A stretch of 64,000 nucleotides of DNA from Chloroflexota bacterium. Lineage in GTDB: Bacteria; Chloroflexota; Limnocylindria; Limnocylindrales; CSP1-4. This document shows positions 1,435-19,647 of this stretch, piece by piece. The stretch covers positions 44,092-108,091 of the forward strand of contig JBHORC010000024.1 of the NCBI GenBank assembly GCA_042408445.1, read 5' to 3'. The first letter of the stretch is position 1, and every line of letters begins with the position of its first letter. The notes below the pieces were generated by a model that was not told the DNA's origin, did no database searches, and saw only the letters and a program-made list of their open reading frames with translations. Both the position numbers and the translations under genes were made by a program.

Positions 1435-2109
1435 ATGGCCCAGCGTCCGCCTCGTCGACGCGCGTTCGACCTCGTGATCTTCGACTGCGACGGCGTCCTG
1501 GTCGACAGCGAGCGGCTCTCGATCCGCCTCGACGTCGAGGTCCTTCGGGATCTCGGCTGGCCGCTCTCCGAGGAGGAAATCGTCGAGCGCTGGGTCGGCC
1601 GGACGGACGAGGTCATGCGATCCGAGATCGAGGCGCATCTCGGGCGCGACATCCGCGAGGAGTGGGCCGCGTTCGGCGAGCGCTACATCGCCGCCTTCGC
1701 GGCCGAGCTGCAGCCCGTCCCCGGTGTCGCGGAGGCGATCGACGCGATCCAGCAGGCGGGCTACCAGACGTGCGTTGCCTCGAGCGGCGATCTCGCGAAG
1801 ATCCGACGGAACCTCGGGATCACGGGCCTGCTCGACCGGTTCGGCGACCGGCTGGTCAGTGCCGACGACGTCATCCACGGCAAGCCGCATCCGGACCTGT
1901 TCCTGCGGGCGGCCGAGGAGTCCGGCGTCGAGCCGGACCGGGCCGCGGTCGTCGAGGATGCGCGAGCCGGCGTCGAGGCGGCCCGGGCGGCGGGGATGCG
2001 CGTCTTCGCCTATTCCGGGAGCGTGACGCCCGCGGCCGCGCTCGAGGGTCCGGGAACCGTCGTCTTCGGCGACATGCGGGAGCTGCCGGAGCTCATCGCC
2101 CGGGGTTGA
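1435..2109 (+). CDS. HAD-IA family hydrolase (beta-phosphoglucomutase/phosphatase-like)
   Basis: N-terminal DLVIFDCDGVLVDSE HAD motif I; approx. 220 aa. Confidence 0.75.
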   Translation: MAQRPPRRRAFDLVIFDCDGVLVDSERLSIRLDVEVLRDLGWPLSEEEIVERWVGRTDEVMRSEIEAHLGRDIREEWAAFGERYIAAFAAELQPVPGVAEAIDAIQQAGYQTCVASSGDLAKIRRNLGITGLLDRFGDRLVSADDVIHGKPHPDLFLRAAEESGVEPDRAAVVEDARAGVEAARAAGMRVFAYSGSVTPAAALEGPGTVVFGDMRELPELIARG

Positions 2110-3568
2110 CGCCGGGCGGGGCGGCGGCCGTCGTGACCGCCGCCCGGCCCGTCGCCGACGTCGGCGTCTGGACGACGAGCGCCTGGCCGAGCGACCAGAG
2201 GGTGAGGGTCGTGAGCGCGACCATGATCATCGCGAGCGGGATCTGGCGGCGGCGATGGTCCGACGTTGCCCCACGCGCCGCACCGGATTGCCGCGCCGCC
2301 ACGACATGGCCCGCCCACGCGCCCAGCATGTGGCCGCCGACGACCGCGGCCAGCTGGACGGTCCAGACGAGCCCGGGCGGCAGCCAGCTCGACGACGGCT
2401 CGTAGAAGGCCCAGCCAAAGTTGCCGAGATCCGAGCCGAGCTGGAGCGGATCGGCGAGCGCGACGACGATGCGCTGGCCGTCGATCAGGACATACGTGAA
2501 GTAGTGGGCCACGAGGTAGCCGGCCGCGATCGGGATCAGGCCGGCGGCCGTGGCGGGCACGCCCACCAGCCGCGACACGATCAGCGCGGCGAGCACGAGC
2601 AGGCCGAGGAAGCCGAACAGCTGGAGCGTCTTGATCGGGACGGCGGGCGCCCCGAAGATCTCGAACCAGGGCTGGGTCTGCGAGAGTCCGTCGAAGAGGA
2701 TCGATGCCGTCCCGATCCCGACGAGGATCACGTCCTCGCGATGCCAGCCGCCGAGCAGCAGCGCCGACGCGAACGGCCGTCGCGCGACCCGGCCCTCCGC
2801 CGGATCGCCGACGAGGCCGTACGGCGCGAGGCGACCGAGCAGGCCGAACCAGACGCTGAACGTCTCGCCGTCGCGGCGCCAGGCGTCACGACCGAACTGG
2901 GCCATCATCGCGAGCGTGAAGGCGGTGTAGCCGACCATCACGATGAAGAGCGAGCGTGGCCCGGCTCCGTTCCCGACGAGCTCGAGCCAGACGAAGAAGA
3001 CGAGACCGATGATCGCGGGCCACCGGCCGAGCCGCGGCGGGTAGTCGGCCTGCGCCCAGCCTTCGATGCCGAGCCGGTCCAGGACGGCCGCCCCGAGGTC
3101 GTGCAGGGTCGTGAACGGATCCAGCCAGTGCCAGACGGGGCCGACGAACGCGGACAGCATCGCCATCCCGACCCAGCCGTAGACCCACAGGAAGAGTGTC
3201 GTGACGTCCCCGGCGCTCGACCCGCCGACGATTCCCTGGGCGACGACCCAGATCCAGCCGATGAGGCCGATCGCCCGCAGGAGGAGGCGGAGCCAGCGAG
3301 GAGGGACGCGTCCCGCCGGCAGGACGGGCGGCTCGGCGCGAACGTCGGCGACGAGCAGGAACGCGAACGACAACCCGACGGCGATCGCCGCGCCGGCCAG
3401 ATAGACGATCAGCGGCAGCCGACTCTGATAGGTGTTGCTGAGCGAGTGGGCGAGGACGCCGACCGGCGCAGCGAACAGGACCGCGCCGACGACCGGAGCC
3501 GCCAGTGCGATCCGCCGCTGGCGACCCATCGGGCTCACCGCGCTCGTCCCGGGCCGCTCAGGTGGCAC
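2093..3568 (-). CDS. Polytopic integral membrane protein, putative CopD-like partner of CopC
   Basis: More than 10 hydrophobic segments; immediately downstream of and overlapping the CopC gene (operon context). GTG at 3568 or ATG at 3529 as start. Confidence 0.4.
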   Translation of the reverse strand: MPPERPGTSAVSPMGRQRRIALAAPVVGAVLFAAPVGVLAHSLSNTYQSRLPLIVYLAGAAIAVGLSFAFLLVADVRAEPPVLPAGRVPPRWLRLLLRAIGLIGWIWVVAQGIVGGSSAGDVTTLFLWVYGWVGMAMLSAFVGPVWHWLDPFTTLHDLGAAVLDRLGIEGWAQADYPPRLGRWPAIIGLVFFVWLELVGNGAGPRSLFIVMVGYTAFTLAMMAQFGRDAWRRDGETFSVWFGLLGRLAPYGLVGDPAEGRVARRPFASALLLGGWHREDVILVGIGTASILFDGLSQTQPWFEIFGAPAVPIKTLQLFGFLGLLVLAALIVSRLVGVPATAAGLIPIAAGYLVAHYFTYVLIDGQRIVVALADPLQLGSDLGNFGWAFYEPSSSWLPPGLVWTVQLAAVVGGHMLGAWAGHVVAARQSGAARGATSDHRRRQIPLAMIMVALTTLTLWSLGQALVVQTPTSATGRAAVTTAAAPPGVNPGR

Positions 3569-4175
3569 GCCGGCCGCGGCCCCGGAGGAGCCACAGGCCG
3601 AGCAGGGCGAGCGCGATCAGCACGACGACGATCGGGATGACCGCATCGCTCGAGGAGGCCGCTGTCCCGGTCCCACCGGACGGTGCCGGCGACGCCGCCT
3701 CCGAAGCCACAGCCGAGGGCACGGCGCTCGCGTCGAGGCTGGCCGAGGCCGCCGGCGACGGCGCCACCGAGCCTGCAGCCGATGGCGCCGCGCTCGCAGC
3801 CGTGACGGTGAACGTCGTCGTGCCCCGATCGATGTCGCCGTCGTCCGCCGACTTCGAGGTCCAGCGGACCGTGTACGCGCCCGCGGTCAGGACCGGGACC
3901 GTCAGCCGAAGCGTCTTCGCGTCCGCTGCGTCCACGGTTCCGCCCTGGGCCACGACGGCCCCACCTCCCGACACGAGGGCGAGAGAGGTTCCGGACTGGG
4001 ACAGCGTCTCGGTGAAGGTCGCAACGATCTCGGTCGGCGGTGGGCCGCTCGACTTGTCCTTCGGGGTCATCGTTGCGAGCTCTGCGTGCGCCGACGCGAC
4101 GCCGGGCGCGAGCAGGATGGACAGGGTGGCGAACGCCACGGCGGCGACGGATCGCCGCGGTCGTCGGGGGGTCAT
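3558..4175 (-). CDS. copC: CopC-family copper-binding protein with C-terminal membrane anchor
   Basis: Signal peptide MTPRRPRRSVAAVAFATLSILLAPGVASA followed by HAELATMTP. CopC beta-sandwich signature YTVRWTSKSADDGDIDRGTTTFTV. C-terminal TM segment. Start refined to internal ATG (4175) of ORF 3558..4355. Confidence 0.65.
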   Translation of the reverse strand: MTPRRPRRSVAAVAFATLSILLAPGVASAHAELATMTPKDKSSGPPPTEIVATFTETLSQSGTSLALVSGGGAVVAQGGTVDAADAKTLRLTVPVLTAGAYTVRWTSKSADDGDIDRGTTTFTVTAASAAPSAAGSVAPSPAASASLDASAVPSAVASEAASPAPSGGTGTAASSSDAVIPIVVVLIALALLGLWLLRGRGRRAT

Positions 4176-4315
4176 GCCGCCGAGTGTACGTCGGCCCCGA
4201 TTCTGAGAACGTGGAGCGAAGCGGCGGGACCGAGGAAGCGGCCGGGGCGAGCGGGAGAGCCGCCCCGGCCGTCCTCGCGGGTCAAGCGGAGGAGTGGTCG
4301 TCGCGCGGCGACGCG

Positions 4316-4621
4316 CTACGCGGCGCGGGGAAGGGGAGTGGCATCGTCGGGGCACGGCGAATTGCGCGCGTCACTCGCCGTGCTCGAGGCGTTCGCCGGG
4401 ACAGGGTGAGCGGCGGACGGCGCGCCCACGAGGGTTCGGGACGGCCCGGCCACCGCGACGCCGAAGGCCACGAGGAGGAGCCCGAGGCGTCCGCGAGCGC
4501 CGGCCGCCAGGCCCGCCGCGCCGCTCGAGCGTCGCGCTCGCCCGGCGCGGAGCACGGTCGCATCGTCCTCGAGCCGCGCGATGTGATCGGTCACGAGGAA
4601 CCGCTGCATCTCGTTCATGTT
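4316..4621 (-). CDS. Small hypothetical single-TM protein (approx. 101 aa)
   Basis: Strong SD GGAGGA 13 nt upstream of ATG (MNEMQRFLV...). High GC3. One hydrophobic segment LGLLLVAFGVAVAG. Upstream of copC on the same strand. Confidence 0.3.
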   Translation of the reverse strand, partial: NMNEMQRFLVTDHIARLEDDATVLRAGRARRSSGAAGLAAGARGRLGLLLVAFGVAVAGPSRTLVGAPSAAHPVPANASSTASDARNSPCPDDATPLPRAA

Positions 4622-4664
4622 GGCCACCCGTTCCTCCTGCCTGTTCTTCCAGGGTCTGTCTGAT

Positions 4665-4682
4665 GTTCGATGGATATCTAAC
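4665..4682. promoter_or_regulatory. AT-rich 18-bp palindrome GTTCGATGGATATCTAAC (candidate operator) upstream of the small-ORF/copC/copD genes
   Basis: Inverted repeat GTTcGAT-N4-ATCTAAC. Near-identical to the site at 5895. Approx. 40 bp upstream of ATG 4621. Confidence 0.5.
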
Positions 4683-4742
4683 TCGGAGGGCTGAAGATGG
4701 GCCACGGCGCTCGCCGCGGCCCTGAGCCCGACTCGTCGGCTC

Positions 4743-5849
4743 CTATCCGATGAGGAACCGCTTGATCTCGTCCGTCGCGTCGTCCAGCCGGTTGCGACGA
4801 AGGCTGTAGTACATGACCGTCCCGGACTCGGTGATCGTCACGAGCCCGGCTGCCCGGAGCTGGGCGAGGTGGTGCTTGATCGTCGGCTTGGACAGCTCGA
4901 GCTGCTGCGCGATCTCCGTCAGGTACAGGTCCCGCGACGCCAGCAGCTTCAGGATCCGCAGCCGCGTCTCGTCCCCGAGGGCACGGTGCAGGCGGACGAC
5001 GGACTGGGGTGGCGTGAGGGCATCGCTCGGGTCCAGCGCGGAGTCCGCGACGGGGTATCCGAAGAAGCGCCAGTCGCGGCCCGACATCAGGAAGTTGTAC
5101 GGCCGCGAGAAGTACGACGGCCCCAGGATCACCCGGGAGACGCCGCTCTCCGGCAGGTACCGGACGCCGCCCGTCGTCGCCTCGATGAGGTCGCCGGCAC
5201 TCAGCCGCTCGCGGTCAGCCGCGCGGCTCTCGTAGTCGCGCTCGAGGATCTCCAGGACGCGCGGCTCGATCGTCGCGAACGCCCGCTGCCAGGCCCGGAG
5301 CACCGAGAGGATCCGTTCCTTGGCCAGCGGCGGATCGCGGAGGATCTCCGTCCGACCCTTCTTGTTCCACTCCGGCAGCTTCTCCGCGATCTCGTCCGCG
5401 GTCGATGCGTCGCCGGCGATCGCGCGCTCGATCAGGTCGCCCAGCCCGGCAAGGTGATAGTCGTCCGCGAACACCGCAACGAGGAGGTCGTGCGGCGTCG
5501 ACGCCTCGATCAGACCGAGCACATCCGACGACGTCCGGATCTCCGGCCGTTCGACGAGCAGGACCCCGGAGTGGATCGCGAGCTCGGTCTCGAAGAGGTC
5601 CGCGACCGCGCCCCGGATCTCGGGCTCCAGCGCCGCCCGGGTCTCGCTCAGCCATTGGCGGTCGGCGGCCGGCAGGTCGTCCGACGAGCCGGCGTCGCCG
5701 GACAGCGAGAAGACGAAGTCGTAGGCCGTCCGGACATCCCAATCGATCCGGATCGTCGCGTCACCGCGGGTGAGATCGCGGACGATGGCGCGCGGCGGGA
5801 CGTCGGCGGGTCGGGCCGCCGGTCGCCGCACTGTCGGTCGTGCCGCCAT
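4743..5849 (-). CDS. ArsR/SmtB-family transcriptional regulator with approx. 270-aa N-terminal domain of unknown function
   Basis: C-terminal winged HTH LHRALGDETRLRILKLLASRDLYLTEIAQQLELSKPTIKHHLAQLRAAGLV. Confidence 0.7.
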   Translation of the reverse strand: MAARPTVRRPAARPADVPPRAIVRDLTRGDATIRIDWDVRTAYDFVFSLSGDAGSSDDLPAADRQWLSETRAALEPEIRGAVADLFETELAIHSGVLLVERPEIRTSSDVLGLIEASTPHDLLVAVFADDYHLAGLGDLIERAIAGDASTADEIAEKLPEWNKKGRTEILRDPPLAKERILSVLRAWQRAFATIEPRVLEILERDYESRAADRERLSAGDLIEATTGGVRYLPESGVSRVILGPSYFSRPYNFLMSGRDWRFFGYPVADSALDPSDALTPPQSVVRLHRALGDETRLRILKLLASRDLYLTEIAQQLELSKPTIKHHLAQLRAAGLVTITESGTVMYYSLRRNRLDDATDEIKRFLIG

Positions 5850-5894
5850 CGCGTTCCTGCTCCTGTCATCCGGCTGCCCCGTGGCGGCTGCCGT

Positions 5895-5912
5895 GTTAGA
5901 TGGAAATCTAAC
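5895..5912. promoter_or_regulatory. AT-rich 18-bp palindrome GTTAGATGGAAATCTAAC (candidate autoregulatory operator) in divergent promoter region
   Basis: Perfect 7-4-7 inverted repeat, 46 bp upstream of the ArsR-like gene start, in an otherwise GC-rich region. Confidence 0.5.
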
Positions 5913-6041
5913 GAGCGGAAGACGACGACGTCAAGGCCTCGCTGCGCCGAAGCGCACCCTCACGGACGGCGGCTGCCGCGGTCCGTCGCGACTCCGACCT
6001 ACAATCGATGCCCCTGACGTGCCGAGGAGCCGACTCACCTG

Positions 6042-7394
6042 ATGCCCAGCGTCCCGACCGTGTCCTTCACCGACGAGCGCCTTGCGAACGGGCTGCGCCT
6101 GATCATCTCGGTCGATCGGCTCGCGCCCGTTGCCGCGGTGAACCTCTGGTACGACGTCGGCTCGAAGCACGAGGTCCCCGGCAAGACCGGCTTCGCCCAC
6201 CTCTTCGAGCACGTGATGTTCCAGGGCTCGAGAAATGTTGCCAAGGCCGAGCACATGGCGCTCGTCCAGGCCGCCGGCGGGACGCTGAACGGCAGCACCT
6301 GGCTGGATCGGACGAACTACTACGAGACGCTGCCGTCGCACCAGGTCGAGCTTGCGCTGTGGCTCGAGGCGGACCGGATGGGGACGCTCCTCGACGCACT
6401 GAGCCAGGAGAACCTGGACAACCAGCGTGAGGTCGTGAAGAACGAGAAGCGCTGGTCCTACGACAACCGGCCCTACGGGTCGTGGTACGAGAAGCTCCAG
6501 GGGCACCTGTATCCGCCGGAGCATCCGTATCACCACACGACGATCGGCTCCATGGAGGACCTCGACGCGGCCTCGATCGAGGACGTGAGCGCGTTCTTCC
6601 GAACCTGGTACGCGCCGAACAACGCGGTGGTGTCGGTCGTCGGTGACGTGGATCCGGACGAGGTCCGGGGCTGGGCCGAGCGCTACTTCGGGAGCATTCC
6701 GGCGAACCCGGAGATCCCGAAGCTCGGCGATCTCTCGCTCCCGCCGACCCTCGGCGCGGAACGCCGGGAGACGGTCCACGACCAGGTCCCGCTGCCGCGC
6801 GTCTACATCGGGTTCCGGGCGCCGGTGTACGGCGACGTCCGGCTGGACGCGCTCGACATTGCCTCGCAGGTCCTTGCCGGCGGCAAGGGCTCCCGGCTCC
6901 ACCGACGGCTCGTCCGAGACGAGCGGGTCGCTCAGGACGTCGCGCTGGTCGCGCTGGGCTTCGTCGGCGGCGCGTCGATCGTCGCCGGTTGGGCGACCGT
7001 CCGCCCGGGCGTGCCCGTGGACCAGGTCGAGGCCGCCATGCACGAGGAGCTGGCGCGACTCGGCCGGGAGCCGATCAGCGATGACGAGCTGGCCCGCGCC
7101 CGGGCGCTGATCGAGACCGAGGAGCTGGCGGCGCTGTCGCGCGTCGAGGAGCGGGCGGACCGGCTGTCGATGTACGCGACCCTCTTCGACGACCCCGATC
7201 TGATCAACCGGATGCTCGGTCGCTACCTCGCGGTCACGGCCGAGCAGATCCGGTCCGTTGCGGAGGAGGTGTTCCGGCCGGACAACCGGGTCGTCCTGAC
7301 GTATCTGCCCGCTCTGCCACCAGCCGAGACGATGCCCGCGGACGAGGACGCAAGTGCGTCCGCGGCGTCAGCGGGCGAGGAGGTCGCGGCATGA
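6042..7394 (+). CDS. M16 family zinc metallopeptidase (pitrilysin-like, catalytic subunit)
   Basis: Inverted zinc motif HLFEHVMFQGS (HxxEH). GAGGAG SD 12 nt upstream. Confidence 0.85.
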   Translation: MPSVPTVSFTDERLANGLRLIISVDRLAPVAAVNLWYDVGSKHEVPGKTGFAHLFEHVMFQGSRNVAKAEHMALVQAAGGTLNGSTWLDRTNYYETLPSHQVELALWLEADRMGTLLDALSQENLDNQREVVKNEKRWSYDNRPYGSWYEKLQGHLYPPEHPYHHTTIGSMEDLDAASIEDVSAFFRTWYAPNNAVVSVVGDVDPDEVRGWAERYFGSIPANPEIPKLGDLSLPPTLGAERRETVHDQVPLPRVYIGFRAPVYGDVRLDALDIASQVLAGGKGSRLHRRLVRDERVAQDVALVALGFVGGASIVAGWATVRPGVPVDQVEAAMHEELARLGREPISDDELARARALIETEELAALSRVEERADRLSMYATLFDDPDLINRMLGRYLAVTAEQIRSVAEEVFRPDNRVVLTYLPALPPAETMPADEDASASAASAGEEVAA

Positions 7395-8905
7395 GCAGCA
7401 GCGAGGTGCAGGTCGTTGCCGAGCGACCGACGCCGGGGACGCCCCGGCCGTACGAGTTCCCGACGGTCGAACGGTCACGGCTCGCCAACGGCCTGTCGCT
7501 GATCGTCGCCGACCTGCCGGGCCGACCGCTCGTCTCGGCCACGCTCGTGCTCCGCAACGGTGCGGTCGACGAGCCGGATTCGGACGCCGGTGCGACGGTT
7601 CTCGCCGCACGGGCACTGACCGAAGGCACCGAGGAGCGCGACGCGATCGCCCTCATCGAGGCATCCGAGCGGCTCGGGGCGTCGCTCCACGCCGAGGCCG
7701 GCTGGGACGCGATGACGATCGGCATCGACGTACCTGCCGCACGGCTCGAGGCGGCGATGGAGCTCCTCGCGGAGGTCGCGCTGCGGCCGACGTTTCCCGA
7801 GGCCGAGGTGGAGCGCCTGCGCGACGAGCGCCTCAACGACCTGCTGCAGGCCCAGGCCGACCCACGGCGCCGGGCCGAGGAGGCGTTCACCGCCACGATC
7901 TACACCGGCGGATCGCCGTACCACCGTCCGTCCGGCGGGACCCGCGAGACCGTGGAGCGTCTCGATGCCGGCCGGCTGCGGGCGGCGTACCAGCGCGGTC
8001 TCGATCCAGCCCGGGCGTCGCTCGTCGTCGGCGGCGACCTGACCGGCCTCGACGTCCCGGCAATTGCGGATCGACTCCTCGGCAGCTGGGGAGCGATGTT
8101 CGGTGCCGGCGTGAGCGGCAGCATCGTCGCCGAGGGCGCGGTTCGCGAGCGGTTCGTGCGGGTCCTGCACCGTCCAGGCGCCGTGCAGACCGAGATCCGG
8201 ATCGGCCATGTCGGCCTGCCGCGGCGGATCGCCGACTACCACGCGGTCTCGGTGATGAGCGCGATCCTGGGCGGGCTCTTCAACTCGCGGCTCAACACGA
8301 AGCTGCGCGAGGAGAAGGGATACACGTACGGCGCGGGAGCCGGCTTCGATCTGCGCCGCGCACAGGGGCCGTTCGGTGCTCGAGCCGCGGTGAACACCGA
8401 AGTCACGGTCCCGGCGATTCTCGACACGGTCGCCGAGCTCGAGCGGATCCGCTCGGAGCCGGTTGCCCCGTCGGAGCTCGCCGCGGCGCGCGACTTCCTG
8501 ATCGGCGTGTTCCCGCTCCGGTTCGAGACCGCCGGGGCGATCGTCGGGGCGCTCGCGGGTCTCGCGGTCCACGACCTGCCGGACGACGAGCTCGCCCGGT
8601 ACCGATCGGGGATCGAGGCCGTGACCGTCGAGGACGTCCAGGCTGCGGCCGTCGCCCACGTTCGTCCGGACGCCGCCGCGATCGTGCTCGTGGGCGATGT
8701 CGACGCGTTCGGCGCGGAGCTCGAGCAGGCCGGGCTGGGCCGGATCGTGATCGAGCGCGATCCCGGGCCGCAGACCGAGGGCCGGGACGAGGGCGTCCAG
8801 GATGGTCTGGGCCCCGTCGACAAGGGATCGACCGGCCCGACCGAGGGCGCCGAGGGCTCCGACGACGAGGCCGACGCGGCTCCCGCCGGAGACGAGGAGC
8901 GCTAG
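7391..8905 (+). CDS. M16 family peptidase, non-catalytic partner subunit
   Basis: M16-like fold without HxxEH. ATGA start/stop overlap with the upstream M16 gene. Confidence 0.8.
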   Translation: MSSSEVQVVAERPTPGTPRPYEFPTVERSRLANGLSLIVADLPGRPLVSATLVLRNGAVDEPDSDAGATVLAARALTEGTEERDAIALIEASERLGASLHAEAGWDAMTIGIDVPAARLEAAMELLAEVALRPTFPEAEVERLRDERLNDLLQAQADPRRRAEEAFTATIYTGGSPYHRPSGGTRETVERLDAGRLRAAYQRGLDPARASLVVGGDLTGLDVPAIADRLLGSWGAMFGAGVSGSIVAEGAVRERFVRVLHRPGAVQTEIRIGHVGLPRRIADYHAVSVMSAILGGLFNSRLNTKLREEKGYTYGAGAGFDLRRAQGPFGARAAVNTEVTVPAILDTVAELERIRSEPVAPSELAAARDFLIGVFPLRFETAGAIVGALAGLAVHDLPDDELARYRSGIEAVTVEDVQAAAVAHVRPDAAAIVLVGDVDAFGAELEQAGLGRIVIERDPGPQTEGRDEGVQDGLGPVDKGSTGPTEGAEGSDDEADAAPAGDEER

Positions 8906-19090: not shown

Positions 19091-19624
<534 letters not shown>

Positions 19625-19647
19625 GCCGAGAGCCAGAGGAGCTAGCG

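What the first reader, a model, noticed from the sequence alone, without database searches (positions are those of the whole stretch)
4316..5912. Two near-identical AT-rich 18-bp palindromes bracket an atypical ArsR-family regulator and precede a putative copper (copC/copD) operon
**Seen in sequence.** GTTAGATGGAAATCTAAC (5895..5912) sits 46 bp upstream of the ArsR-like gene. GTTCGATGGATATCTAAC (4665..4682) sits about 40 bp upstream of a small SD-preceded ORF that leads into copC and the copD-like membrane gene. The two sites match at 16 of 18 positions, are 7-4-7 inverted repeats, and are strikingly AT-rich for this GC-rich DNA.

**Established knowledge.** ArsR/SmtB metalloregulators bind 12-2-12-type AT-rich palindromes and autoregulate. 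This regulator carries an unusual approx. 270-aa N-terminal domain ahead of its HTH.

**Inference.** It is probably a metal (Cu?)-responsive repressor controlling both itself and the downstream CopC/CopD export or uptake genes. The same intergenic region is divergent to the M16 peptidase pair.
Basis: partly seen in the sequence, partly recalled or inferred. Interest (0 to 1): 0.6.

Follow-up and report, generated by a model that had tools for sequence, protein, structure and literature searches.

The report
Conserved operator pair of long ArsR regulator
The two AT-rich palindromes are real and conserved across about 80 genomes of one soil bacterial class. They look like binding sites of the regulator gene they bracket, serving that gene and a tiny unstable-looking protein next to it rather than the nearby copper genes.

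Summary
GTTAGATGGAAATCTAAC (5895-5912) and GTTCGATGGATATCTAAC (4665-4682) are the only such sites in the 64-kb window (0.09 expected by chance). Both recur at the same two positions in about 75-78 of 80 Limnocylindria (Chloroflexota) loci.

O1 sits on the regulator's own promoter. A TTGAC(A) -35 lies 16-18 nt upstream, and the -10 (TAGATT) is inside the left arm. This geometry suggests autorepression.

O2 follows a conserved hairpin after the regulator gene and precedes a small orphan ORF of 103 aa. That protein is predicted as two helices plus a disordered tail, and 55 of 76 orthologues end in Ala-Ala.

The regulator (368 aa) has an ArsR-type winged helix at its C-terminus. It has no cysteine and no alpha5 histidine. 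Its N-terminal domain is a remote DUF5937 relative with no solved structure.

The copper reading is not supported:
- copC has its own conserved leaderless promoter (TACACT 7 nt before the ATG).
- In many genomes copC is separated from the small ORF by about 1 kb of unrelated genes, and in about 14 it is missing, while O2 and the small ORF persist.
- The "copD-like" protein matches no Pfam family.

Verdict: a real but uncharacterised autoregulatory module of moderate interest.

The parts
5895..5912 (-). Operator O1. On the minus strand it reads GTTAGATTTCCATCTAAC, a perfect 7-4-7 inverted repeat upstream of the regulator gene.
   Evidence: Conserved in 78/78 alignable loci, with G1, T2, A4, G5 and T13-A19 invariant or nearly so.
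5929..5934 (-). -35 hexamer TTGACG of the regulator's promoter P1.
   Evidence: Promoter scan. TTGAC is present 19-23 nt before O1 in 76 of 78 loci and at 33 nt in the other 2.
5905..5910 (-). -10 hexamer TAGATT of P1, lying inside the left arm of O1 with an 18-nt spacer.
   Evidence: The hexamer is at palindrome positions 3-8 in all loci, and T at position 0 gives a TGn extended -10 in 53/78.
4743..5849 (-). Regulator gene, 368 aa. N-terminal DUF5937-like domain (about residues 20-280) plus a C-terminal ArsR-type winged helix (285-357). The protein contains no cysteine.
4699..4722 (-). GC-rich hairpin GGGCCGCGGC-GAGC-GCCGUGGCCC followed by AUCUUCAG. It resembles a terminator at the 3' end of the regulator gene.
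   Evidence: Fold z = -3.1. Conserved in 27 aligned loci, with changes on both sides in 5 of 9 pairs. The terminator scan did not call it because the U tract is weak.
4665..4682 (-). Operator O2. On the minus strand it reads GTTAGATATCCATCGAAC, with one arm mismatch, between the hairpin and the small ORF.
   Evidence: Conserved in about 75 of 80 loci (G1 T2 T3 A4 G5 A6 ... C14 T/G15 A16 A17 C18 A19). There is no TTGAC -35 in 76/77, and position 8 is never T.
4654..4660 (-). Degenerate third half-site GACAGAC, 22 bp after the first half-site of O2. It matches GTTAGAT at the G, A, G and A positions.
   Evidence: Positions 23, 26, 27 and 28 are conserved in 53-72 of 77 loci. At O1 of most other loci the same position holds GTTAG overlapping the Shine-Dalgarno sequence (about 56/78). 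That element is absent from O1 of this window.
4316..4627 (-). Small orphan ORF, 103 aa. GTG start 5 nt after AGGAGG (4633-4638). Predicted as two helices plus a disordered tail ending ...PLPRAA.
   Evidence: A gene call with the identical 103-aa product exists (P0121). GC3 is 0.87. AF2 predicts helices 2-36 and 43-59 with a disordered tail. No Pfam hit.
4239..4271 (-). GC-rich hairpin after the small ORF (GGCCGGGGCG...CGCCCCGGCC, then GCUUCCUC).
4183..4188 (-). copC's own -10 hexamer TACACT, 7 nt before the ATG. This implies a leaderless transcript. It is not part of the palindrome module.
   Evidence: TACACT or TAGACT is at this exact offset in nearly all of about 55 loci.
3558..4175 (-). 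CopC-domain protein with a signal peptide and a C-terminal anchor. It is a neighbour, not part of the conserved module.
   Evidence: Pfam CopC, 48 bits against a cut-off of 23.3. Absent from about 14 loci.
2093..3529 (-). It has no family assignment.
   Evidence: No Pfam or NCBIfam hit. All 120 listed homologues are unnamed or called 'hypothetical' and lack Pfam domains.

Best explanation
The two palindromes are the cognate operators of the regulator gene they bracket. Together with a small downstream ORF they form a two-gene autoregulatory module. The module is inherited vertically through the class Limnocylindria (Chloroflexota) and occurs in more distant relatives.

The regulator is a long ArsR-family protein. 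A C-terminal winged helix carries an invariant recognition helix, SKPTIKHHL. It sits behind an N-terminal domain of about 270 aa that is remotely DUF5937-like and presumably receives the signal.

A dimer would bind GTTAGAT-N4-ATCTAAC, whose half-site centres are 11 bp apart. In most genomes a third half-site lies 22 bp after the first, which suggests that a second dimer binds cooperatively.

O1 covers the -10 hexamer and the expected start point of the regulator's own sigma-70-type promoter, so binding should repress its own transcription (inferred). O2 lies after the regulator's hairpin and just upstream of a 103-aa orphan ORF. It has the same orientation and geometry as O1, so the same protein should gate that gene (inferred).

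The small protein is predicted as two helices followed by a disordered tail that almost always ends in Ala-Ala. That is the hallmark of ClpXP-type C-terminal degrons. It is therefore probably a short-lived partner or output of the switch (speculative).

copC and the membrane gene are a separate, leaderless transcription unit that is merely adjacent. No copper or other metal signal is indicated.
For: Chance is excluded within the window.

Conservation:
- Both sites occur at the same two positions in 75-78 of 80 loci whose regulators are 49-78% identical, and nowhere else in those loci.
- The half-sites are invariant while the spacers and flanks vary.

Promoter geometry at O1:
- A TTGAC(A) -35 lies 16-18 nt before TAGATN in 76 of 78 loci.

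Co-occurrence of site and regulator beyond the class:
- L202: 35% identity in the N-domain, with both O1 and O2.
- L107: 34% identity.
- L117: an organism of 42% G+C, with the identical 7-4-7 site 4 nt before the ATG.
- A DUF5937 member with a different recognition helix has a different palindrome, GTTCAA-N6-TTGAAC.

O2 and the small ORF:
- They persist where copC is absent.
- They are lost together in L027, L050 and L056.
- The ORF is coding: GC3 is 0.87, and a conserved family of 61 proteins, none with a functional name or Pfam domain, is found by profile search.
- Ala-Ala ends 55 of 76 orthologues, against 2 of 34 other genes in the window.
- AF2 predicts a helix, a second helix and a disordered tail.
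- A C-terminal Ala-Ala is a demonstrated ClpXP degron; sigma-AntA is an example (PMC7142297).

The DNA-binding domain is ArsR-type.
Against: - No binding, transcript or expression data exist; the organisms are uncultured.
- O2 lacks a recognisable -35, and its TAGA(T/C)(A/G) hexamer never ends in T. Whether it is a promoter-operator, a roadblock or a looping site is open.
- The window's own O1 lacks the third half-site.
- The genome-wide distribution of the motif could not be examined. Only about 0.8 Mb of related DNA and a capped sample of metagenome hits were read.
- The degron and partner roles of the small protein are inferred from sequence only.
- The link of the N-domain to DUF5937 is weak. 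The window protein does not hit the model, and only 5 of 50 relatives do, the best at 27.2 bits against a cut-off of 27.1.
Confidence: 0.65

Rival explanations
1. The regulator is a metal-responsive, probably copper-responsive, ArsR/SmtB-type repressor that controls itself and a copC/copD export or uptake operon through the two sites.
For: The ArsR-type HTH passes the NCBIfam 'metalloregulator ArsR/SmtB' subfamily model at 71 bits against a cut-off of 55. CopC is real. It lies downstream on the same strand in about 65 of 80 loci.
Against: The regulator has no Cys in 368 aa and no His in the alpha5 region. copC has its own conserved leaderless -10 and lies after a hairpin. Unrelated genes of 0.5-1.4 kb are inserted between the small ORF and copC in about 20 loci. 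copC and the membrane gene are absent in about 14 loci and in L202 while O2 persists. No palindrome occurs near copC in any locus. The membrane protein is not CopD.
Confidence: 0.08
2. The operators and regulator are as in the best explanation, but O2 is not a promoter. The small ORF is transcribed by read-through from P1 across the hairpin. O2 then acts as a transcriptional roadblock, or as the second anchor of a DNA loop of about 1.2 kb with O1.
For: O2 has no -35 in 76/77 loci, and its hexamer never ends in T. The hairpin has only a weak U tract and was not called a terminator. In L202 the small ORF follows the regulator closely. A large N-terminal domain could mediate higher-order oligomers.
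Against: The hairpin is conserved with compensatory changes and is followed by a T/C-rich tract, as a terminator would be. Other promoters in this locus (M16a, copC) also lack a conserved -35. O2 keeps the same orientation and distance to the Shine-Dalgarno sequence and start codon as O1 in the more distant loci.
Confidence: 0.2
3. The conserved sequences are promoter or initiation-region elements, or sites for a different DNA-binding protein. The adjacent regulator does not bind them.
For: The left arm contains the -10 hexamer of P1, so part of the conservation is explained by promoter function. No binding data exist.
Against: The right arm TCTAACA is invariant in 78/78 loci, although it lies in the normally variable region between the -10 hexamer and the transcription start. 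The dyad symmetry recurs at O2, which has no -35. The motif travels with homologues of this regulator across 42-73% G+C. It changes when the recognition helix changes.
Confidence: 0.07
4. The regulator represses at O1 but activates at O2, recruiting RNA polymerase to an intrinsically poor promoter for the small ORF.
For: O2's hexamer is non-canonical and lacks a -35. Some ArsR-family members are described as activators; HlyU entries in the PDB are named 'transcriptional activator'.
Against: The site overlaps the presumptive -10 and start region, which is a repressor position. No upstream activator-type site is conserved.
Confidence: 0.1

Closest known systems
ArsR/SmtB-family autorepressors (SmtB, CzrA, ArsR, CadC)
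   Different: The protein is 368 aa rather than about 100-120. It has an extra N-terminal domain of about 270 aa. It has no Cys and no alpha5 His, so none of the known metal, metalloid or persulfide sensory sites is present. The operator is 7-4-7 (GTTAGAT-N4-ATCTAAC) rather than 12-2-12. No metal-resistance gene is under its operators.
NolR of Sinorhizobium (non-metal ArsR-family repressor)
   Different: NolR is a single-domain protein of about 100 aa and a global regulator with many sites. Here the sites seen are confined to the regulator's own locus, and the protein carries a large extra domain. The resemblance in motif is a lead, not a demonstrated relationship.
Pfam DUF5937 (PF19361) plus ArsR-HTH proteins
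   Same: The architecture is the same: an uncharacterised domain of about 270 aa followed by HTH_5/HTH_20. Five of 50 full-length relatives of the window protein hit DUF5937 over most of the N-domain. One such member (P0301) also has a palindrome between the -35 and its start codon.
   Different: The window protein itself does not hit the model. Its clade is a small, divergent branch: 377 cluster representatives out of 1.84 billion. No function or operator is published for DUF5937 in the searched literature.
ClpXP substrates with a C-terminal Ala-Ala degron (SsrA tag, sigma-AntA, PopR/ClgR)
   Same: The small ORF product ends in Ala-Ala in 55 of 76 orthologues on a predicted disordered tail. 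Sigma-AntA shows the same pattern, with 67 of 71 orthologues ending in Ala-Ala (PMC7142297).
   Different: No sequence homology, and degradation is untested. The small protein is not itself a recognisable DNA-binding or sigma protein.
SdpR/SdpI-type modules (ArsR-family autorepressor plus a partner protein that controls it)
   Same: The HTH scores 62 bits against NF033789 'autorepressor SdpR family'. The module is a regulator gene followed by a small partner gene.
   Different: The score is below the model's cut-off of 100. The partner here is not a polytopic membrane protein. Interaction is purely hypothetical.

Membership tests
ArsR/SmtB family (DNA-binding domain) | Winged helix-turn-helix matching HTH_5 / NF033788 above the curated cut-offs. 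| tested here: met
   PF01022 59.1 bits (cut-off 22). NF033788 71 bits (cut-off 55), residues 285-357. PDB hits include HlyU, CzrA, SmtB and CmtR. Structural matches are reported.
ArsR/SmtB family (metal or metalloid sensor) | A sensory site: Cys-based alpha3/alpha3N/alpha4C/alpha5C, or His/Asp/Glu alpha5 (DxHx10HxxE-type). | tested here: not met
   The 368-aa sequence contains no cysteine. The C-terminal helix LDDATDEIKRFLIG contains no histidine. Judged by direct reading of the sequence, not by a structure-based alignment.
ArsR/SmtB family (autoregulation) | An inverted-repeat operator overlapping the regulator's own promoter. | tested here: met
   O1 contains the -10 hexamer of a TTGACG-18-TAGATT promoter. 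The arrangement is conserved in 78 loci. Binding itself is not testable here.
Pfam DUF5937 (PF19361) | An N-terminal domain matching the DUF5937 model at or above the gathering score. | tested here: inconclusive
   The window N-domain gives no hit at E<=10. It is homologous to P0301 (E 9e-13), and P0301 hits DUF5937 at 27.2 bits against 27.1. Five of 50 relatives hit it at E<=0.01.
Pfam DUF5937 (PF19361) | Architecture: an N-terminal domain of about 270 aa followed by an ArsR-type HTH. | tested here: met
cop (CopC/CopD) copper operon under the palindromes | CopC domain protein. | tested here: met
   PF04234 48 bits against 23.3.
cop (CopC/CopD) copper operon under the palindromes | CopD-domain membrane protein. 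| tested here: not met
   No Pfam hit at E<=1 and no NCBIfam hit. All 120 listed homologues lack Pfam domains.
cop (CopC/CopD) copper operon under the palindromes | copC is co-transcribed from, or preceded by, the operator. | tested here: not met
   copC has its own conserved -10 at 7 nt before the ATG, after a hairpin. Insertions of 0.5-1.4 kb occur in about 20 loci. copC is absent in about 14 loci where O2 is kept. No motif lies near copC. Transcripts were not available.
ClpXP C-terminal degron substrates | C-terminal Ala-Ala-COO- on an accessible tail. | tested here: met
   The window protein ends ...PRAA. 55 of 76 orthologues end in AA, against 2 of 34 background genes. The tail is predicted disordered.
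ClpXP C-terminal degron substrates | ClpXP-dependent degradation that is abolished by changing AA to DD. | not testable with these tools
   Requires an experiment.
Intrinsic terminator (hairpin after the regulator gene) | A GC-rich stem-loop followed by a U tract. | tested here: inconclusive
   A 10-bp GC stem is conserved, with changes on both sides in 5 of 9 pairs. The tail is only AUCUUCAG, and the consensus terminator scan called nothing.

The most novel reading that the evidence does not exclude
The DUF5937-like ArsR regulator and the small helical protein with an Ala-Ala tail form a previously undescribed proteolysis-gated switch. The small protein would be an anti-repressor or co-repressor that docks on the N-terminal domain. 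Its level would be set jointly by O2 and by ClpXP-type degradation. Operators with three half-sites would give cooperative, switch-like control. The module is ancient: it is conserved across a whole class of Chloroflexota and in lineages of lower G+C. It would give a first function to the DUF5937 domain.
Probability: 0.2. Interest if true: 0.6.

Novelty: new variant of a known kind. Interest (0 to 1): 0.4.

Why it matters
Limnocylindria are abundant soil and freshwater bacteria with very few cultured representatives, and almost nothing is known about their gene regulation. This locus offers:
- a clean, phylogenetically footprinted operator, GTTAGAT-N4-ATCTAAC;
- a promoter architecture;
- a testable regulator-target pair for an uncharacterised domain family (DUF5937-like plus ArsR HTH).

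It also shows that proximity to copC is a misleading guide to function here, which argues against a plausible but probably wrong 'copper regulator' annotation. If the small protein with the Ala-Ala tail proves to be a labile partner of the regulator, the module would be a new example of proteolysis-coupled transcriptional control.

Tried and rejected
1. **RNA element.** Rfam found nothing at gathering score in the whole window, and only a spurious snoRNA hit (E 0.15) in 4100-6100. The predicted start point of P1 falls inside the right arm, so the palindrome would not be transcribed whole. An RNA-hairpin reading was dropped.
2. **Mobile-element ends or recombination sites bracketing the gene.** Rejected. 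The whole M16 / regulator / small ORF / carB neighbourhood is syntenic and diverges normally across 80 genomes. The sites also have promoter geometry.
3. **Control of the divergent M16 pair.** M16a has its own conserved -10 (cTACAAT, TACGAT or TACCCT). O1 lies 52-530 nt from the M16a start codon at variable distance, so no coupling is evident.
5. **Family scans.** Pfam and NCBIfam gave nothing for the N-domain or the small ORF.
6. **Literature.** One unrelated paper mentions DUF5937. Nothing was found on Limnocylindria regulators.
7. **Regulon search.** Most were chance matches in low-GC DNA. Of the 10 hits with G+C of 0.62 or more, six lie next to regulator homologues. The rest are from unrelated taxa or are uninformative. 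This neither shows nor excludes further targets.
Full report
**Observation**

They agree at 16 of 18 positions. The first is a perfect 7-4-7 inverted repeat and the second has one arm mismatch. The surrounding DNA is about 71% G+C.

With up to three mismatches the pattern occurs only at these two places in 64 kb, against 0.09 expected from dinucleotide-preserving shuffles. The minimal core GTTAG-N8-CTAAC with one mismatch gives the same two places, against 0.04 expected.

**Genes, all on the minus strand**

| Coordinates | Product | Evidence |
|---|---|---|
| 4743-5849 | 368-aa regulator. Residues 285-357 match the ArsR wHTH (HTH_5 59 bits, NF033788 71 bits). Residues 1-280 match nothing, even at E<=10. 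| |
| 4316-4627 | 103-aa ORF. GTG start 5 nt after AGGAGG. GC3 0.87. An identical gene call exists in public data (P0121). | |
| 3558-4175 | CopC-domain protein. | |
| 2093-3529 | 478-aa membrane protein. No Pfam or NCBIfam match, and all listed homologues lack Pfam domains and functional names. 'copD-like' is unsupported. | |

The M16 peptidase pair is divergent on the plus strand. Best protein hits and locus titles place the window in Chloroflexota, class Limnocylindria.

**Comparative evidence**

Eighty loci encoding relatives of the regulator (49-78% identity) were fetched from one genome per species.

- The same palindrome is found 14-72 nt before the regulator start in 78 loci.
- It is found again 29-91 nt after the regulator stop in about 75 loci.
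- It occurs nowhere else in about 750 kb.

Position counts show where conservation lies. At O1, G1, T2, A4, G5 and T13, C14, T15, A16, A17, C18 are invariant, T3 and A19 are nearly so, and the four central bases and the flanks vary. O2 keeps G1 T2 T3 A4 G5 A6 and C14, T/G15, A16 A17 C18 A19. The recognition helix SKPTIKHHL is invariant in the aligned proteins.

**O1 is a promoter-operator**

A TTGAC(A) hexamer lies 19-23 nt before O1 in 76 of 78 loci and 33 nt before it in the other 2. This leaves 16-18 nt to TAGATN, which occupies palindrome positions 3-8. In 53 of 78 loci a T at position 0 makes a TGn extended -10. In the window the promoter scan calls TTGACG-18-TAGATT at 5934-5905. A protein on O1 would therefore cover the -10 hexamer and the start point, which is the classical autorepression geometry.

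In about 56 of 78 loci a third GTTAG follows at positions 23-27 and overlaps the Shine-Dalgarno sequence. The window and its nearest relatives have lost it and have a longer leader.

**O2 differs from O1**

O2 is preceded by a GC-rich hairpin, in the window GGGCCGCGGC-GAGC-GCCGUGGCCC then AUCUUCAG, with a fold z-score of -3.1. The hairpin is conserved, with changes on both sides in 5 of 9 pairs.

O2 has no TTGAC upstream in 76 of 77 loci, and position 8 of the hexamer is never T. A degenerate third half-site (G23, A26, G27, A28) follows.

O2 faces the same way as O1 and is followed by a Shine-Dalgarno sequence and start codon. In the more distant loci these come within 16-20 nt, as at O1. The M16a and copC promoters in this locus also lack a conserved -35. 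Whether O2 is a weak promoter-operator, a roadblock for read-through from P1, or a looping partner of O1 cannot be decided from sequence.

**The gene behind O2**

A small ORF of 65-140 aa follows O2 in 76 loci. The family has three parts:
- a conserved N-terminal helix (LQRALVADHIxxLEREAAALRAER);
- a second, hydrophobic helix (RVRLGRWLVAVGxAIAG);
- a tail of variable length that ends in Ala-Ala in 55 of 76 members, against 2 of 34 other genes in the window.

AF2 predicts helices 2-36 and 43-59 and a disordered tail. A profile search finds only 61 proteins, with no Pfam domains and no functional names; the few that are named are from Limnocylindrales.

C-terminal Ala-Ala is the critical part of the SsrA-type ClpXP degron. 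It controls sigma-AntA in Streptomyces, where 67 of 71 orthologues end in Ala-Ala (PMC7142297). The inference that the small protein is short-lived rests on this analogy only.

**copC is not under the palindromes**

- In nearly every locus copC is preceded by TACACT or TAGACT exactly 7 nt before its ATG. That is a leaderless promoter.
- In the window it also lies after a second GC-rich hairpin.
- In about 20 loci, 0.5-1.4 kb of unrelated genes separates the small ORF from copC. These include LLM/F420-type oxidoreductases and membrane proteins.
- In about 14 loci copC and the membrane gene are absent, and the small ORF is followed directly by the convergent carB.
- In the distant locus L202 an MFS transporter takes their place.
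- In the three loci without O2 (L027, L050, L056) the small ORF is missing too.

The conserved unit is therefore regulator, O1, O2 and small ORF. M16a likewise has its own conserved -10, at a variable distance from O1.

**The site travels with the regulator**

A capped metagenome scan for the exact pattern returned mostly chance hits in low-GC DNA.
- Six of the ten hits with G+C of 0.62 or more lie next to regulator homologues.
- A seventh case, L117, comes from an organism of 42% G+C. A 392-aa homologue (30% identity, recognition helix SRPTVSHHI) has the identical GTTAGAT-N4-ATCTAAC ending 4 nt before its ATG, with a TTGACA upstream.
- L202 (35% identity) has both O1 and O2.
- A DUF5937-positive relative with a different recognition helix (GKSLMHHHL) carries a different palindrome, GTTCAA-N6-TTGAAC.

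This co-variation is the best available evidence that the adjacent protein is the binder.

**What the regulator is**

The HTH is ArsR-type by sequence and by fold. The protein contains no cysteine and has no histidine in the alpha5 region. None of the known ArsR/SmtB sites for metal, metalloid or persulfide is therefore present.

The N-domain is confidently modelled, with pLDDT 80-97 over residues 31-220. It has no match among solved structures. Its family is small: 377 cluster representatives out of 1.84 billion. Five of 50 full-length relatives reach Pfam DUF5937, the best at 27.2 bits against a cut-off of 27.1. It is thus a remote branch of an uncharacterised family that is typically fused to ArsR HTHs. 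No paper in the library says what DUF5937 does.

Among characterised proteins the closest analogy for DNA recognition is NolR. NolR is a non-metal ArsR-family repressor whose consensus (A/T)TTAG-N9-A(T/A) shares the TTAG half-site (PMC12445080). This is a resemblance, not a tested relationship.

**Verdict**

The sites are almost certainly the regulator's operators, and autoregulation is well supported by the geometry. The metal/copper signal and the control of copC/'copD' are not supported, and several independent lines argue against them.

What remains is a tidy, ancient and uncharacterised two-gene switch whose signal is unknown. It is a new variant of a familiar kind of system and is of moderate interest.

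Noticed in passing
window 4176-4188 (minus strand), and upstream of copC in about 55 loci: copC is preceded by a conserved cTACACTc or TAGACT hexamer exactly 7 nt before its ATG, with no Shine-Dalgarno sequence. This looks like a leaderless transcript conserved across the class.
   Followed up: partly
window 2093-3529 (minus strand): The 478-aa polytopic membrane protein after copC is far better conserved than CopC itself (75-94% against 36-60% identity). It has no Pfam or NCBIfam family, and every listed homologue is unnamed or 'hypothetical'. It may be an uncharacterised partner of CopC that replaces CopD.
   Followed up: partly
window 6000-6005 (plus strand), and upstream of M16a in the loci: The M16 peptidase operon has a conserved -10 (cCTACAATcg, gcTACGATcg or gGTACCCTtcg in different sub-clades) about 35-45 nt before the start codon, with a GAGGAG Shine-Dalgarno sequence and no conserved -35.
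   Followed up: partly
L001 about 6600-7530; L035 6465-7319; L046 6537-7373; L014 and L016 about 6700-7700: The gap between the small ORF and copC is a variable insertion point. Different genomes carry LLM/F420-type oxidoreductase genes or unrelated membrane-protein genes there.
   Followed up: partly
L035, L036, L040, L042, L044 and related loci, at O2; proteins P0125, P0127, P0133 and others: In one sub-clade the right arm of O2 reads ATGACTAAC. Gene callers start the small ORF at that ATG, giving N-terminally extended 'MTNTQQ...' proteins whose first codons are the operator itself. The ATG about 50 nt downstream, preceded by a Shine-Dalgarno sequence, is the likelier start.
   Followed up: partly
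L117 44-83: In a contig of 42% G+C, the identical GTTAGAT-N4-ATCTAAC sits between a TTGACA and a TAATAT hexamer, ending 4 nt before the ATG of a 392-aa homologue. A further ATCTAA half-site lies just upstream. No second site or small ORF was seen downstream.
   Followed up: partly
L118 6275-6292: An exact copy of the palindrome, followed by a second ATCTAAC, lies just upstream of a short-chain dehydrogenase gene. The contig has 66% G+C, is of unknown taxon, and has no regulator homologue within reach. It is either a chance match or an additional target.
   Followed up: partly
window 19543-19625 (minus strand): ARAGORN reports a 'tRNA-???' with a four-base anticodon (ccgg). Rfam finds no tRNA or any other family in the whole window at gathering score, so this is probably a false positive.
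   Followed up: partly
small ORF products, near the C-terminus (window protein ...NSPCPDDATPLPRAA): Many orthologues carry a P-C-[DGN]-D-G-P motif with a single cysteine about 10 residues before the Ala-Ala end. Other sub-clades lack it entirely. Its significance is unknown.
   Followed up: no
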